Source of the DNA: Eledone cirrhosa
Lineage: Eukaryota
NCBI GenBank assembly: GCA_964016885.1
Contig: OZ024743.1
Coordinates: 227,974,001-228,038,000 of the forward strand
Reading direction: 5' to 3'
DNA: 64,000 nucleotides
Shown: positions 1 to 8,699 of the stretch, in pieces
Layout of the letters: the number at the start of each line of letters is the position of its first letter
Position numbering within the stretch: position 1 is the first letter of the stretch
Position numbers and translations under genes: made by a program
Notes under the pieces: generated by a model
The model's input: the letters and a program-made list of their open reading frames with translations, nothing else
What the model was told of the DNA's origin: nothing
The model's database searches: none

Positions 1-1
1 A

Positions 2-142
2 TCTAAACATAGGAATGACCCAGCAGATAGGCAAATCAGAGAGGCCAGTGAAATAGAAATTAGAAGGCCAAAGCTAAACAGAAAGAATGAGTGGAACAAC
101 AACAACACCCAAACAAACAACACTGACCTAAGAGAAGTATAA
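2..142 (+). CDS. C-terminal end of a Penelope-like retroelement ORF (GIY-YIG endonuclease tail), truncated by the window edge
   Basis: Manual translation of frame 2: SKHRNDPADRQIREASEIEIRRPKLNRKNEW...REV*. R-x-I-x-E-A-x2-I...P-x-L-N matches the C-terminal GIY-YIG motif of PLEs. It is followed by a pLTR-like region with a hammerhead motif. Confidence 0.75.
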   Translation, partial: SKHRNDPADRQIREASEIEIRRPKLNRKNEWNNNNTQTNNTDLREV

Positions 143-651
143 ATAAATAAGTAAATTAAATTAAATAAAATAAGATAAATAAATACATACACAAGCACAT
201 AAACACACACTAGTCACCCAGCAGACACAACACTATACACACTAGTCACACATCACACACGCAAACGCATGCGCAAAGAAGACAAAATAAAATAAGATAA
301 ACAAACAAGCAAACAAATAAATAAATATATAGACGGACTGAACAAAAAAAATGGCGTAGACATACAACACAACAGGAGGAACAATGAATATAACACCACT
401 GACGATGTTGCAGATGTGCAACGAAAGATTTATGTAAACTATATATATATGTGTTTGTCTATATTGTATCTGTATTATTTTATTTTTGACCGCCGGTCAG
501 TCAATGGCAACATTGAGGACCGAGTAAGTTAGATCGCAGATATATATATATAAAAGACAGCGAGAAGCGAAAACCAACCAAACAGTGAGTGTGTTCTGTT
601 ATTAATTCTGGCAATATTACGCAAATATGACCCTCCCCAAATATAACAATA
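143..651 (+). mobile_element. PLE 3' UTR / pseudo-LTR (pLTR)
   Basis: Follows the GIY-YIG stop. Contains the HHR-like core (399-434), a GCAA-capped hairpin (494-522) and ATG followed by GTAAGT. Recurs at 3700-3962(-), 3977-4295(+), 6681-6927(-) and 6928-7011(+). Confidence 0.7.
394..436 (+). ncRNA. Minimal type-I hammerhead ribozyme motif (PLE type), copy 1
   Basis: CUGACGA(399-405)-U-GUUGCA-gaug-UGCAAC-GAAA(423-426)-GAUU-UA. The core boxes and a perfect 6-bp stem II are present; stem I is weak (about 2 bp). Confidence 0.6.
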
Positions 652-718
652 CATATATATATATATATATATATATAAATATATACATATATATGTAAAT
701 ATATACATATATATATAA

Positions 719-795
<77 letters not shown>

Positions 796-854
796 AATAT
801 ATACATATATATATATGTATATATATATATAAATATATACATATATATATATAT
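652..854. repeat. Compound (TA)n microsatellite
   Basis: TA/TAAA/TACA repeats visible directly. Confidence 0.95.
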
Positions 855-2475
855 GTGTCGACTTGGAGAAAGCCTTCGACAGAGTCCCCCGTTCCATTAT
901 CTGGTGGGCCCTTAGAAAACTAGGCGTTGACGAATGGCTTGTGAGAGCTATACAAGCCATGTATAAAGAAACAGTCAGCAAGGTCAGAATTAACAACGAA
1001 TATAGTGAAGAGTTTAGCGTAAAAGTTGGCGTCCATCAGGGCTCTGTTCTCAGCCCCCTACTATTTATTATTGCCCTTCAGGCTATAACAGAGGAGTTCA
1101 AGACCGGCTGCCCATGGGAACTCCTATACGCAGACGACCTAACACTCATAGCTGAATCAATGGCCGAGCTAGAGAAGAAATTCCAAACATGGAAGCACGG
1201 CCTAGAATCAAAAGGCCTTAAAATTAATCTGGCTAAGACCAAAGTTCTAGTTTGTAGGAAAGAAAATAAGGCGGCGGTCCCTTCCGGGAAGTGGCCATGC
1301 TCAGTGTATAGGAAAGGTGTAGGTAGAAACTCCATTTTGTGTCAGAAATTCAAAGTATGGGTGCATAAAAGATGTAGTGGGATCACAGGTAAGCTAACTA
1401 AGAACATAGATTTCACATGTGGCCGGTGCTCTGGTGCAATAAGTAGCAGCAAGTGCACACAAAATACTAGCTCTTTCAACTGCGCAGAGGGATCTATAGA
1501 AATAGTGGACAGCTTCCGTTACCTGGGTGACAAAATCAGCAGTGGGGGAGGGTGCTCTGAAAGTACAGTAGCTAGAGTCAGAACTGGATGGAAAAAGTTC
1601 AGAGAGCTTATACCACTATTAGCTGCTAAAGGGTTCTCCCTAAAAACGAAAGGCAGGTTGTATGATGCCTGCATACGAACTGCAATGTTGCATGGCACTG
1701 AGACCTGGGCATTGTGTGCAGAGGATATGTGCAGACTAGAGAGGAACGAAGCTTGCATGCTTCGCTAGATGTGTAATAGTAATATAGGTGAACGGCAAAG
1801 CATAAACGAACTAAAGAAAAAATTAGAAATAAGAGGGCTCGGATGTTGTTTGCTCGAGAGAAGGCTACGTTGGTATGGACACGTGATGCGCATGAAAGTC
1901 GATAGCTGTATAACAAAGTGCAGGGCAATAAAGATAGACGGTAGCCACGGAATAGGCAGACCTAGAAAAACCTGGGACGAGCTGATAAACTCCGACCTCA
2001 CACACTTACACCTCTCCAAGACAATGTCACTGGACCGAGACCTTTGGCGGTACTCAGTAATAGAGAAGACCCGCCTTACCTAAATACATAGTAAAACCTA
2101 CTACAGTCAGTAGGCATCTCTAGCAAAATACACCCCGTCCCACCACCCCCACCCCATCCACACCGCCCCCCTTCTATGTAAAGTTATGTTGGTGCCACAC
2201 CATCCAGGCCGAAACAAATGAGATCGTGTAGGTGTCACGACAAAAAAACACACAGTCCACGCTGTAATGTGGCCGTGTAGGCAACACGGTAAAAACCTCC
2301 CAGACCCACACTGTAAATGTGGTTGGTGTTAGGAAGGGCATCCAACTGTAGAAAACCTGCCAGACAGTCCTATGCAAGCAAGACAATCACTCTTGCCTCG
2401 AGTGGGAAAACCCCCGTCCAAACCCATGCAAGCGTGGAACATGGACGTTAAACGTTGATGATGATGATGATGATA
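855..2475 (+). mobile_element. 5'-truncated RTE-clade LINE, family A (RT fragment + ~390-nt 3' UTR + (GAT)n tail)
   Basis: ORFs 863-1768 and 1769-2083 are in one frame: [47 protein letters not shown]. The 3' end is GGACGTTAAACGTTGATGATG. Confidence 0.92.
863..2083 (+). pseudogene. Disabled RTE reverse transcriptase ORF
   Basis: In-frame TAG at 1766-1768 replaces the W of MLRW seen in the paralogous copy at 4711-5874. No endonuclease domain or true start is present. Confidence 0.88.
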
Positions 2476-3152
2476 TGTATATATAAATAAATACATATAT
2501 AAATATATACATATATGTATATGTATATATATATATAAATATATACATATATAAATATATACATATATGTATATGTATATATATATATAAATATATACAT
2601 ATATAAATATATACATATATGTATATGTATATATATATATAAATATATACATATATAAATATATACATATATGTATATGTATATATATATATAAATATAT
2701 ACATATTTAAATATATACATATATGTATATGTATATATATATATAAATATATACATATATAAATATATACATATATGTATATGTATATATATATATAAAT
2801 ATATACATATATGTATATGTATATATATATATAAATATATACATATATAAATATATACATATATAAATATATACATATATAAATATATACATATATAAAT
2901 ATATACATATATAAATATATACATATATAAATATATACATATAAATATATACATATAAATATATACATATAAATATATACATATAAATATATACATATAT
3001 AAATATATACATATAAATATATACATATAAATATATACATATAAATATATACATATAAATATATACATATAAATATATACATATAAATATATACATATAA
3101 ATATATACATATAAATATATACATATACATATATATATATACATATATATAC

Positions 3153-3184
<32 letters not shown>

Positions 3185-3220
3185 ATATATACATATACAT
3201 ATATATATATATACATATAC

Positions 3221-3289
<69 letters not shown>

Positions 3290-3332
3290 CATATATATAT
3301 ACATATATATATACATATATATACATATATAC

Positions 3333-3363
<31 letters not shown>

Positions 3364-3528
3364 TATATATATACATATATATACATATATATACATATAC
3401 ATATATATATACATATATATATACATATATATACATATATATATACATATATATACATATATATATACATATATATATACATATATATATACATATATAT
3501 ATACATATATATATACATATATATATAC

Positions 3529-3559
<31 letters not shown>

Positions 3560-3592
3560 CATATATATATACATATATGTATACATATATGT

Positions 3593-3663
<71 letters not shown>

Positions 3664-3699
3664 TGAATATATACATATATATGTAAATATATACATATA
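2476..3699. repeat. ~1.2-kb compound AT microsatellite/minisatellite (units such as ATAAATATATAC)
   Basis: Direct inspection; source of the YI-repeat ORFs. Confidence 0.95.
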
Positions 3700-3886
3700 T
3701 AATTGTTATACTTGGGGAGGGTCATATTGTTGTAATAATATTGCCAGAAATAATAACAGAACACACTCACTGTTTGGTTGGTTTTTGATTCTGTATCTTT
3801 TATATCAGTTAATTCATTCAGGTCCTCAATGTTTACCATTGACTGACCAATGGTCAAAAATACAGATATAAACACATATATAGTGT

Positions 3887-3929
3887 AACAAAGTTCTTTC
3901 GTTGCACACCTACAACATCGTCCGTGGTG
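3887..3929 (-). ncRNA. Degenerate hammerhead motif, copy 3 (core U4->G)
   Basis: Reverse complement reads CGGACGA-U-GUUGUA-ggug-UGCAAC-GAAA-GAAC-UU. Stem II is kept via a U-G wobble; the core is mutated. Confidence 0.5.
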
Positions 3930-4010
3930 CTATTATGTTCCTCCTGTTGTATTGTATATTTACCCCAAAGATGGCATAAATATACAATACAACAGGAGGA
4001 ACATGATAGC

Positions 4011-4052
4011 ATCACTGACGATGTTGCAGATGTGCAACGAAAGAACTTTGTT
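4011..4052 (+). ncRNA. Minimal hammerhead ribozyme motif, copy 2
   Basis: CUGACGA(4015-4021)-U-GUUGCA-gaug-UGCAAC-GAAA(4039-4042)-GAAC-UU. Confidence 0.55.
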
Positions 4053-4295
4053 ACACTATATATATATATGTGTTTATATCTATATTATATCTGTATTTTT
4101 TGCCTTTGGTCAGTCAATGGTAAACATTGAGGACCGAATGAATTAACTTATATAAAAGATACAGAAGCGAAAACCAACCAAACAGTGAGTGTGTCCTGTT
4201 ATTAATTCTGGCAATATTATTACAACAATATGACACTCCCCAAGTATAAAAATAGCTGTTTCGACACACGATTTCATATCAAAAACCTCGCAAAA

Positions 4296-4661
4296 TATAA
4301 ATATATAAATATATACATATATATATAAATATATACACATATATATATAAATATATACACATATATATATAAATATATACACATATATATATAAATATAT
4401 ACACATATATATATAAATATAAACACATATATATATAAATATAAACATATATATATATAAATATAAACATATACATATAAACATATACATATATATATAA
4501 ACATATACTTATATATATAAATATATATATATACATATATATATAAATATAAATATATACATATATATATAAATATAAACATATATATATAAATATAAAT
4601 ATATACATATATATATAAATATATACATATATATATATATATACATATATATATACTGTAT

Positions 4662-4692
<31 letters not shown>

Positions 4693-4695
4693 TAC
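4296..4695. repeat. Compound AT microsatellite
   Basis: Direct inspection. Confidence 0.95.
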
Positions 4696-6080
4696 ATCAT
4701 CATCATCATTTTACGTCCGCTTTTCCCTGCTTGCAAGGGTGGGACGGGTCTTATTCAGCACAGCATCTCTCCACTCGTCACGGTCCCTCGTCATCTCCAC
4801 CATGAGTTTCAATGATCTGAGGTCTGTTCTCACCACCTCCGCCCATGTTTTTCGTGGTCTACCTCTACCACGTCTTCCTTCAACTGGCATTTCCTGGCAC
4901 TTCTTCACCCATCGGTCATCCTCCATGCGCATCACATGTCCATACCACCTCAGTCTCCTCTCCCGTACACTACATTCTATCCCTCTCAGACACAGTCTCT
5001 CTCTCAACACATTTATGCTGGGTCGTTCACGCACATTTACTCTGCACATCCAACGGAGCATGCTTGCCTCATTTCTCTCCAGCCGTCGCATATCCTCTGC
5101 AGTTGCTGCCCATGTCTCACTACCATGCAGCATCGCGCTCCTCACACAGGCATCATAGAACCGGCCTTTCGTACGCAGGGAGAAACCCTTCTTCGTCAAC
5201 AGAGGAAGCAGCTCCCTAAACTTCTTCCAACCCGTACTTATTCTAGATACTATGGCCTCGGAACACCCTCCTCCCATGCTAATCTGATCTCCTAGGTACC
5301 GGAAGCTATCCACCACTTCTATAGCGCCCTCTTGCATTTGAAAAATGTGTCTATCAGTGCGACTTCTACTGTCTAATTTCCCTGTACATCTACTGCATAC
5401 ATATTTCTCCCTACCTGTTAGTTTGCCTGCTATCCCGCTACATCTCTTGTGTACCCAGGATCTGCATTGTGTGCATTTTATAGAATTTATGCCAATTCCT
5501 TTTCTGCATATCGAACATGGCCATTTCCCTGACGGAATCAGGGTTTTGTCCTCTTTTCTACTCATCAACACTTTTGTCTTAGCTAGATTCACTCTCAGTC
5601 CTCTTGCTTCCAACTGCTGTTTCCATAGCCAGAATTTATTCTCTAGCTCCTCTACTGATTCTGCTATAAGAACCAGATCATCAGCATAGAGAAGTTCCCA
5701 TGGACAGCCAGTCTTAAACTCCTCTGTTATGGCTTGGAGGACTATAATGAACAAGAGCCGGCTGAGGACCGAACCCTGATGTACTCCTACTTGTATCTGG
5801 AATTCCTCACTAAACTCCATTCCTACTCTGACTTTACTGAGAGTACCTCTGTACAAAGTTTGCACTGTCCTCACAAGCCATTCCTCAACACCTAGCTTCC
5901 TTAGGGACCACCAGGTACCCTATCAAAGGCCTTCTCTAGGTCAACAAAGGCTAAGCATAGTGGCTTATTCTTCTCTAAGAACCTCTCTTGCATTTGTCTC
6001 ACCAAGAAGAGGGCATCTGTTGTACTCTTCCCAGGCACAAAACCAAACTGCATCTCATCTAGTTTGACCCTTTCTCTAAT
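4696..6080 (-). mobile_element. 5'-truncated RTE-clade LINE, family B (ORF runs to the 3' tail)
   Basis: ORF 4711-5874 (GVHQGS, YADD, FRYLG, RLRWYGHVMRM, GRGRPRKTW) plus an upstream piece (QFGFVPGKSTTDA...[12 protein letters not shown], ~5915-6075) joined by a frameshift near 5900. The (ATG)n tail lies just after the stop. Confidence 0.92.
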
Positions 6081-6232
6081 ACATATAAATATAAATATAT
6101 ACATATATATATAAATATATACATATATATATACATATACATATATATATACTGTATATATACATATATATATATATAAATACATATATACATATATATA
6201 TATATACACACAAATATATACACACACACACA

Positions 6233-6645
6233 CATCATCATCGTTTAACGTCCATTTTCCACGCTAGCATGGGTCTAGACGGGAATTGTCCCACTTGAGG
6301 CAAGATTGGTTGTCTTGCTCAGGACTGCCTGGCGGGTTTTCTACGGCTGGGTGCCCTTCCTAACACCAACCACGTTTACAGTGTGGACTGGGAGGTTTTT
6401 ACCGTGTTACCTACACGGCCACATTGCAGCGTGGACTGTGTGTTTTATTGTCGTGACACCTACACGTCTGGCGGGTTTTCTACGGCTGGGTGCCCTTCCC
6501 AACACCAACCACGTGTACAGTGTGTACTGAGAGGTTTTTATCGTGTTACCTACACGGCCACATTACAGTGTGGACTGTGTGTTTTTTTGACACCTACACA
6601 ACCTCATTTGTTACGGACTGGATGTTGTGGTACCAACATAACTAT
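6233..6645 (-). mobile_element. 3' UTR/tail fragment of RTE family A (or derived SINE) with an internal ~140-bp duplication
   Basis: Reverse complement matches 2178-2470. The unit CTGGCGGGTTTTCTACGGCTGGGTGCCCTTCC... occurs at ~6329 and ~6468. Confidence 0.8.
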
Positions 6646-6680
6646 AGATATATATATATATAGATATATATATATATATA

Positions 6681-7011
6681 GCGGCGATGAATTAGTTTTG
6701 CGAGGTTTTTTATATGAAATCGTGTGTCGAAACAGATATTGTTATATTTGGGGAGGGTCATATTTGCGTAATATTGCCAGAATTAATAACAGAACACACT
6801 CACTGTTTGGTTGGTTTTCGCTTCTCGCTGTCTTTTATATATATATATCTGCGATCTAACTTACTCGGTCCTCAATGTTGCCATTGACTGACCGGCGGTC
6901 AAAAATAATACAGATACAATATAGACACGAAAACCAACCAAACAGTGAGTGTGTTCTGTTATTAATTCTGGCAATATTACGCAAATATGACCCTCCCCAA
7001 ATATAACAATA
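6681..7011. mobile_element. PLE pLTR fragments: minus copy (6681-6927) abutting a plus copy (6928-7011)
   Basis: 6737-6907 is the exact reverse complement of 481-651. 6928-7011 repeats 568-651 in direct orientation. Confidence 0.8.
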
Positions 7012-7232
7012 TATATATATATATATATTAATATACACATATATATATATATATATATACGCTCATATATATATATACATATATTAATATACACATATAT
7101 ATATATATAAATATACATACACACACACATATATAAATATATATATAGTACATCTTATAAGATAACCTATGTTTTGCACTCTTCAGACCAAGGCAGTATT
7201 GATGATGATAACAACAACAATAACAATAATAA

Positions 7233-7421
7233 TGGTTTCTACTTTTTGGCACAAGGCCAGCAATTAGCCAGTGCATTACTGGTACTTTATTTTATCGACT
7301 CCGTAAGGATGAAAGGCAAAGTTAACCTCGGCGAGATTTGAACTCAGAATGGCAAGGGCCGTTACTCTGTGCGTCAAAGCATGGCGTCCGACCCTCTACC
7401 GATACTGCCAATCCACCCTCC
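7233..7421 (-). mobile_element. tRNA-derived SINE with a Deu/Nin-domain-like core (family S1)
   Basis: A-box-like TGGCAGTATCGG, B-box GAGTTCAAATC, core GCCTTTCATCCTT-n-CGGGGTCGATAAA...GTACCAGT, 3' end GTAGAAAC plus a short ATT tail. More than 10 copies in the window. Confidence 0.85.
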
Positions 7422-7443
7422 TTAATAACAACAATAATAATAA

Positions 7444-7628
7444 TAATTGTTTCTACTTTTGGCACAAGACCAGCGATTGCCCTAGTGCATCACTGGTCCT
7501 TTATTTTATCGACCCCGTAAGGATGAAAGGCAAAGTTAACCTCGGTGGGATTTGAACTCAGTTTGTAAAGGGATGCAACTCTTTGCTGGAAAGCATGGTG
7601 CCAGACGCTCTACCGATACTGTCAATCA
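7444..7628 (-). mobile_element. SINE family S1
   Basis: Tandem copy next to 7233-7421 with the same motifs. Confidence 0.85.
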
Positions 7629-8699
7629 ATAATGATAATAATATTAATGGTACTAAAAACAACAATGACAAAATCAAAATTAAAAGACGAAGTAGAAAGA
7701 GAAGGAAAGGGGGATGAATATTCTTGGTATATACTACTACCATCAACACTAGTAGTAGCAGCAGCAGCAGCAGCAATGGTAATACTAGAAATAGGGATTT
7801 GTTTTTTGGCACCAGGCCTTTTTATAATGAGGCAAGTTATAGATAATTGAATCGATGTCAGTATATTACTGGTATTTATCTTATAATAATCCAACGACAC
7901 CAGTCCTTGGCATAAGGCATCACTTAGCTACTATAAATTTATGTCATTCTACCATATTTCTAAGCCAATGATAGACTATGGCATACTTTGACATGCTAGA
8001 ATTAACAGTTCCCTCAAATTACATACTACCATCTTGACAAATGAAAGAACACATTGCCTAATATAATCCATGGTAGACTATGCTGAATAAAAGAAAAAGT
8101 GATGATCTGGTTGCAAAAAATGCAACAAAAATTTTGGCCCCAAGAAATAAATTATAAACATATGTGAGTTTAACAATTTTTTGTGGAATTTCTGAATGGC
8201 TAAAATAACTGTTCCATGATGTAACATATAATATTTGGGTGGGTTTTTTTAAATGTTTAAAATGACTCTTCAAGGATATAATTGTTATTATTTATCTAAA
8301 TCTGTAATGAGTTTATTTTATTGTGTAAATTTGTTCTGAAGCATAGGTTTAGTTTCTTGAAAGAAAAATAATTTCCTCATAATCTTACTATGCATGAACA
8401 TGAACCAGGGACATCAAGACGGGGTGAACTTTCACACAAAGTAAGTCATACTTTACATACCTGACCACCAATGCTTACATCTCAATTCAAATGTGAGTTA
8501 GCAAAAGGTACTTACCTAAAAAGAAAGAAAAAAGAAAATATATTAAATATTTTAAAATTTCAATTTAATCACACAGCAATAATAACAATATTTTACTTAG
8601 AGATGGGTCTATGTCATGATATGACATAAGACCCAGACTATGTCTTGGTATCCTTACTGATGTTTATACCTTTTGCCAATATACTGAAGAACACACTCA

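What the first reader, a model, noticed from the sequence alone, without database searches (positions are those of the whole stretch)
394..4052. Three minimal hammerhead-ribozyme motifs in Penelope-like pLTRs, with an inferred palindromic stem III (dimer type)
Seen: CUGACGA-U-[GUUGCA-loop-UGCAAC]-GAAA at 399-426(+) and 4015-4042(+), and a core-mutated copy at ~3897-3924(-) whose stem II survives through a U-G wobble. After GAA the copies read AGAUUU and AGAACU, each one change from the palindrome AGAUCU. Established: PLE pLTRs carry minimal HHRs with short palindromic stem III that work best as dimers, often with an extra U after A9. Inference: an octopod PLE family with self-cleaving RNA, whose intact members cleave ~290 nt downstream of the GIY-YIG stop.
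Basis: partly seen in the sequence, partly recalled or inferred. Interest (0 to 1): 0.72.

Follow-up and report, generated by a model that had tools for sequence, protein, structure and literature searches.

The report
Ordinary Penelope hammerheads, palindrome guess wrong
These are hammerhead-ribozyme motifs of a known kind (one of the three has a broken core) in the end repeats of Penelope-type jumping genes, with about 33,000 related motifs in this genome; they are predicted to cut their own RNA only weakly, and most new copies likely come from uncut RNA.

Summary
The three motifs are real and sit in pseudo-LTRs of endonuclease-bearing Penelope-like elements. Copy 1 belongs to a very young family with intact 4,117-bp tandem units and a 1,217-codon RT/GIY-YIG frame; copies 2 and 3 are one inverted insertion of an older family. 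A degenerate pattern finds 32,880 such motifs (control 1), and stem II covaries between families. The inferred AGAUCU palindrome is wrong: family A carries AGAUUU, family B AGAACU, and only 163 motifs carry AGAUCU. Stem I is only 2 bp in register in the window's families (4-5 bp in sister family C). This kind of ribozyme is in print (PMC4209133, PMC11167929). Copy 5' ends pile up about 80 nt upstream of the cut, at a conserved motif, so uncut RNA is the likely main template. A 2.2-2.6-fold excess of ends at the predicted scissile bond over one matched control (p 0.01-0.02) may record occasional cutting in vivo, but other controls weaken it. The scan's notes report both patterns in other genomes.

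The parts
2..142 (+). 3' end of the RT/GIY-YIG frame of a 5'-truncated family A copy (stop at 140-142); the copy starts about 1.0 kb before the window and its frame is interrupted there
   Evidence: 99.0% to intact unit L063 with 3 gaps; intact frame P0001
143..340 (+). A/C-rich 3' untranslated region
335..356 (+). zone where copy 5' ends pile up, ending in the conserved AA(A/G)ATGGCG motif (348-356); likely RNA start (inferred); the label YY1-like is recalled
388..444 (+). hammerhead motif 1 (family A): core 399-426, stem III AGAUUU 426-431, H17 = A432, predicted cut 432/433, stem I 2 bp in register
341..652 (+). pLTR copy 1, family A; holds the ORF's ATG at 627-629; ends at the commonest 3' end (652) next to (TA)n
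3695..3962 (-). pLTR copy 3, family B, inverted arm; hammerhead core 3897-3924 with U4G, predicted cut 3891/3890
3967..4293 (+). pLTR copy 2, family B, with tail; hammerhead core 4015-4042, stem III AGAACU, H17 = U4048, predicted cut 4048/4049; 5' end at the conserved upstream motif
6720..7020 (.). further inverted pair of family A pLTR pieces, both truncated 3' of the hammerhead (minus arm starts at the equivalent of 456, plus arm at 568)

Best explanation
The motifs are minimal type I hammerhead motifs in the pseudo-LTRs of endonuclease-bearing Penelope-like retrotransposons; they are predicted to cleave weakly and likely only with help (pairing of two copies through stem III, or the element's protein), while the element likely spreads mainly from uncut RNA that likely starts about 80 nt upstream of the cut. 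Shown: core, stem II covariation, position in the pLTR, intact tandem elements, three 3' end classes, 5' end pile-up. Inferred: transcription starts in the upstream pLTR and reads into the next one; reverse transcription starts at the equivalents of 652, 695 or 710 and inserts into (TA)n; when it runs to the RNA's 5' end it leaves copies or fold-backs starting at 335-352; a small share of RNAs is cut at 432/433.
For: Architecture matches the published min-HHR: long helix II, unpaired base after A9, G10.1-C11.1, complementary 15.2-16.2 (PMC4209133). Stem II pairs in 100% of cells over 16 hand-picked variants, with double changes at two pairs between families A/B and C, whose endonuclease ends are only 51-66% identical in protein. 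32,880 motifs. Intact 1,217-codon frames in units of 4,117 bp, two neighbours 100% identical. 3' ends at 652 in 37 of 84 copies, 695-697 in 13, 709-711 in 19, like the internal RT starts and tail of PAc (PMC11167929). 5' ends: 6 of 41 within 7 nt at the upstream motif in a sample chosen by a 3' motif (p 0.0009); 55 fold-backs there; 4 of 41 near the cut (p 0.13). Weak stems: self-duplex 0.0 kcal/mol for AGAUUU and +1.4 for AGAACU against -5.0 for AGAUCU. PAc's hammerhead needs protein and is dispensable for insertion in vitro.
Against: No cleavage or expression data. Stem I is 2 bp in the youngest family, and the predicted minimum-energy folds of copies 1 and 2 are not the hammerhead fold, so these families' motifs could be inactive. 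The covariation rests on two or three family-level events, not 16 independent ones, and the pair-type measures did not beat the shuffles (130/500 and 499/500). The 5' pile-up overlaps an A-run, which could itself stop or misalign reverse transcription; the 7-nt window was chosen after seeing the data.
Confidence: 0.7

Rival explanations
1. The hammerhead cuts efficiently in vivo and makes unit-length 4.1-kb RNAs that circularise; rolling reverse transcription of the circle builds the tandem arrays (the model of PMC4209133).
For: Head-to-tail arrays of identical 4,117-bp units. Junctions starting exactly at the cut exist: seven family B fold-backs whose longer arm ends at +0, six of them joined without microhomology and one through a short spacer (read by eye), and 12 of 30 (TA)n-joined family B copies at +0.
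Against: Copies starting at the cut are about 0.6% of family B copies (16 against 2,519 continuous). Ends at the upstream motif, which a circle cut to cut would not offer, are the clearer pile-up. Identical units also follow from read-through of an existing array. Seamless passage through a ligated circle leaves no mark, so this rival is not excluded.
Confidence: 0.15
2. In the window's families the motif is a decayed or non-catalytic relic, kept as sequence inside the promoter or as a protein-binding hairpin; junctions at the cut only reflect a general liking of 5' junctions for TG starts and microhomology.
For: Stem I 2 bp, stem III marginal. Control TG sites also collect ends: about 6, 11 and 4 of 38 loci (hand count); a control site far from the cut has as many fold-backs as the cut (59 and 59). 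Family C, with the best stem I, shows no clean peak (6 of 24 at the cut, 5 at -5).
Against: All core positions and both core-flanking pairs of stems I and III are kept across families whose flanks differ freely (partly built into the search pattern). The cut keeps a 2.2-2.6-fold excess over a matched T|TG site. Equivalent motifs cleave in vitro in other species.
Confidence: 0.15

Closest known systems
Minimal type I hammerheads (min-HHR) of metazoan PLE pLTRs, Cervera and De la Pena 2014 (PMC4209133; parts 1-2 of 4 read)
   Same: pLTR location, helix II of 6 bp, unpaired base between 9 and 10.1, G10.1-C11.1, complementary 15.2-16.2, many families per genome, mostly single truncated copies
   Different: Loop 3 is mostly AA, not palindromic; helix I is 2 bp in families A and B (published 4-5 bp; family C fits). 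At least 32,880 motifs against the 4,000 and 9,000 called remarkable there. The passages read name no cephalopod; its supplements were not seen.
Drosophila virilis Penelope hammerhead variant (PMC4209133)
   Same: 2-bp helix I, 6-bp helix II with bulged 5' base, small helix III with a 2-nt insert, high identity in a young family
   Different: No bulge in helix II here; no intron end was identified at helix I (inspection only); insert not palindromic in family B
PAc, Poseidon of Anolis carolinensis (PMC11167929; parts 1-2 of 4 read)
   Same: Several 3' end classes making a tail, AT-rich targets, hammerhead in the pLTR, uncut RNA as main template
   Different: Here the cut lies 194 nt upstream of the ATG, not inside the ORF, and the protein has the CX2-5CxxC linker described for Neptune and Nematis
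Neptune / Nematis EN+ PLEs (PMC8557442; passages read)
   Same: One ORF, RT then linker CX4CxxC then C-terminal GIY-YIG; (TA)n targets; tandem and inverted insertions
   Different: DKS in place of DKG; long Asn-rich insertion in the N-terminal part; clade not fixed by a tree

Membership tests
type I hammerhead (PLE min-HHR) | core CUGANGA, GAAA, UH | tested here: met
   copies 1 and 2; copy 3 fails at U4
type I hammerhead (PLE min-HHR) | helix II with G10.1-C11.1 and unpaired base after A9 | tested here: met
   100% of cells paired, two pairs with double changes; extra base U or G
type I hammerhead (PLE min-HHR) | helix I of 4-5 bp | tested here: not met
   2 bp in family A, 2+1 in B; met in family C. 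A 2-bp helix I is published for the D. virilis variant, so the window's motifs are filed with that variant
type I hammerhead (PLE min-HHR) | self-complementary positions 15.2-16.2 and loop 3 (dimer stem III) | tested here: inconclusive
   15.1-16.1 and 15.2-16.2 always pair; AGAUUU is self-complementary only with two G-U pairs, AGAACU leaves two A-A mismatches; duplex energies 0.0 and +1.4
type I hammerhead (PLE min-HHR) | site-specific self-cleavage, better as dimer | not testable with these tools
   indirect junction excess only
Rfam hammerhead families | match to a covariance model | tested here: not met
   no hammerhead family among 92 matches at E<=10 in window 1-8000
EN+ Penelope-like element | single ORF with RT and C-terminal GIY-YIG | tested here: met
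   P0001: YVDD 833, YIGET 1123, R...EA.EI 1181 (motif names recalled); Pfam gave no hit on P0001 itself, homologues carry PF00078 or PF01541
EN+ Penelope-like element | pLTRs from partial tandems, inverted 5'-truncated arm, optional tail, (TA)n targets | tested here: met
Neptune / Nematis clades | CX2-5CxxC linker before the endonuclease | tested here: met
   residues 1084-1092 of P0001 (feature)
Neptune / Nematis clades | placement in an RT tree with named references | not tested
   no named reference sequences were fetched
non-LTR retrozyme | tandem units of 150-450 bp each with a hammerhead | tested here: not met
   hammerhead-bearing tandem units are 4.1 kb and coding; the one short tandem seen (L236) lacks the hammerhead

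The most novel reading that the evidence does not exclude
The genome keeps a fossil record of Penelope hammerheads cutting in the germ line: copies and fold-backs that begin exactly at the scissile bond are reverse transcripts of 5'-OH cleavage products, so tens of thousands of junctions give a per-family readout of in vivo cleavage, even for motifs with a 2-bp stem I and a non-palindromic stem III that should need the element's protein.
Probability: 0.35. Interest if true: 0.6.

Novelty: new member of a known kind. Interest (0 to 1): 0.3.

Why it matters
The motif itself is expected in Penelope pLTRs. What is useful is the material: a young family with many identical intact units, sister families that differ in stem I and stem III, and tens of thousands of junctions. 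Whether these hammerheads cut in vivo, and whether that matters for transposition, is open in the papers read (PMC4209133 notes no in vivo evidence; PMC11167929 found no reads ending at the cut; PMC8557442 calls the function unclear). A full junction census in this genome and a cleavage assay on three natural variants would address it directly.

Tried and rejected
AGAUCU consensus: rejected. Rfam: no hammerhead hit. Naiad/selenoprotein or Hydra clade: rejected by domain order and linker. Retrozyme arrays: not seen with a hammerhead. Expression: no RNA holder listed; four contig runs of unknown kind were laid and say nothing on RNA ends. A strong claim of in vivo cutting from 12 of 30 ends at +0 (p 2e-7 against a uniform null) was withdrawn after controls showed a general preference for TG starts; fold-back counts by site were 59 at the cut (reversed-pattern control 20; 42 of 50 listed were real pLTR junctions), 55 at the upstream motif, and 8, 16, 5 and 59 at four control sites, so the count alone does not single out the cut. 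Family C did not replicate cleanly. Family A junctions are ambiguous because the cut sits in a short quasi-palindrome. A DNA search with 545-650 returned nothing. A tblastn step failed through a wrong option and was redone. Lunse et al. 2017 is not held; only the review's account was seen.

Full report
Observation. The two plus-strand cores (399-426, 4015-4042) and the U4G minus copy (3897-3924) are as described. Rfam found no hammerhead in 1-8000. Copies 2 and 3 are the arms of one inverted insertion flanked by (TA)n. The window lies on contig 4 of a 3.0-Gb genome.

The element. Window 345-650 is identical to 43 of 45 listed genomic matches (only 40 of 268 candidates were scored), and the 41-base hammerhead of copy 1 occurs 1,415 times exactly. 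Fetched arrays hold 4,117-bp head-to-tail units with a 1,217-codon stop-to-stop frame; two neighbouring units are 100% identical and units on different contigs 99.9%. [quoted passage not shown] By the features in PMC8557442 (passages) it is Neptune- or Nematis-like; no tree was built. The window's own copy is 5'-truncated and its frame is interrupted upstream of the window. The stop is 290 nt before the predicted cut and the ATG of the next unit is at 627.

The ribozyme. A degenerate pattern finds 32,880 motifs against 1 for the reversed control. Three main groups appear: A (stem III AGAUUU), B (AGAACU) and C (different stem II, extra base G; AGAACU, AGGACU or AGAGCU). Family C also lies 270-390 nt behind GIY-YIG matches in 8 of the 30 loci. 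Of those 30 loci 22 have AGAACU, 4 AGGACU, 2 AGAUUU, 2 AGAGCU, none AGAUCU; AGAUCU totals 163 genome-wide. On 16 hand-picked variants stem II pairs in all cells with double changes at two pairs, the two stem III pairs always form, and stem I keeps two invariant pairs but only 68.8% over five; these are a few family-level events, and two of the five whole-structure measures did not beat the shuffles. Stem I is 2 bp in register in A, 2+1 in B, 4-5 in C; the stem III self-duplex is 0.0 (AGAUUU), +1.4 (AGAACU), -1.7 (AGGACU) and -5.0 kcal/mol (AGAUCU).

Copy ends. In 84 family A copies (chosen mostly for an intact pLTR, so biased) 3' ends fall at 652 (37), 695-697 (13) and 709-711 (19), matching the tail and internal RT starts of PAc. 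Of 58 mapped 5' ends, 12 lie at 335-352; these are 7 of about 18 independent insertions ending in 1-352 (hand count; p 2e-5). In 100 copies chosen by a motif 3' of the hammerhead (first 100 of 16,018), 55 ran on upstream; of 41 ends in range (4 tandem duplicates dropped) 6 lie within 7 nt at a conserved AA(A/G)ATGGCG motif (p 0.0009) and 4 near the cut (p 0.13). The motif is shared by families A, B and C; calling it YY1-like is recall. D. virilis Penelope has an internal promoter in this part of the element (PMC2377424, passages). I infer an RNA start here and uncut RNA as main template; the adjoining A-run is an alternative cause.

Is cutting recorded? For: seven family B fold-backs have their longer arm ending at the first base after the cut (by eye); 12 of 30 (TA)n-joined family B copies start there (6 fold-back loci of the 36 were left out), all with pLTR downstream and no 5' half upstream apart from weak hits in two inverted-arm loci. 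Against: control TG starts also collect ends, one control site has 59 fold-backs like the cut, family C shows 6 of 24 at the cut and 5 at -5, and family A is ambiguous. The matched comparison gave 16 junctions per 2,519 continuous copies at the cut against 13-15 per 5,222 at a T|TG site 23 nt upstream (junctions called by eye, 3 of 33 control matches not fetched, some positions blurred by microhomology): ratio 2.2-2.6, one-sided p 0.01-0.02, one control, chosen afterwards; either half alone gives p 0.03 and 0.11-0.20. This is suggestive only.

Literature. PMC4209133 (parts 1-2 of 4) describes this class, its dimer model and low activity. PMC11167929 (parts 1-2 of 4) shows a protein-assisted PLE hammerhead that insertion does not need in vitro. 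PMC6765202, PMC7229834, PMC6962438, PMC2377424 and PMC8557442: passages only; the giant squid paper lists 235 hammerhead matches. bioRxiv 10.64898/2026.07.22.740005: part 1 of 5 and passages, no octopus or cleavage-site mention. Searches listed no paper on octopus PLE hammerheads or on junctions at the cut, judged from listings; supplements and Lunse et al. 2017 were not seen. Earlier AI notes of this scan report the upstream pile-up and a partial excess at the cut in other genomes; they are unchecked and not counted as support; no look-alike sequence was indexed.

Verdict. Real, ordinary members of a known class; the specific palindrome inference fails; the open point of value is whether the small excess of ends at the scissile bond is a record of cutting in vivo.

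Noticed in passing
window 856-2083 (+), 4711-5919 (-), continuing to about 6060: Two truncated LINE-like RT frames with a PHD-type finger (Pfam RVT_1, PHD) inserted in the (TA)n tracts between the pLTRs; unrelated to the Penelope element.
   Followed up: partly
L067:1492-1548, L183, L184, L237: A subfamily close to family A carries a 9-base tandem duplication spanning the predicted cut (10 loci; also seen in run X5). Cause unexplained.
   Followed up: partly
L369 around 1500: A copy lacks the whole hammerhead core, deleted between short direct repeats at the two stem I arms.
   Followed up: no
L152:1340-1500 and L281:300-350: Single insertions with two successive fold-backs, both returning to the predicted cut.
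   Followed up: partly
L236 (G000:C1:34852800-34856500): Five tandem units of about 313 bp made of a hammerhead-less pLTR piece, an inverted tail piece and (TA)n.
   Followed up: partly
L231, L234, L238; C15:3013805: Several 5' junctions carry the same short piece from just beyond the tail (GCGGCGATG) between the (TA)n flank and the copy, suggesting a fourth, inverted RT start further into the ORF.
   Followed up: no
L063:552-4202, residues about 255-415: Long Asn/His-rich low-complexity insertion in the N-terminal part of the intact protein.
   Followed up: no
pLTR, several sites: 5' junctions prefer TG starts at several sites unrelated to the cut, a property of this element's insertion that any junction test must control for.
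   Followed up: partly
window 484-502 and 520-530: A small hairpin conserved in families A and B, and a splice-donor-like stretch in family A; an intron in the pLTR was not tested.
   Followed up: no
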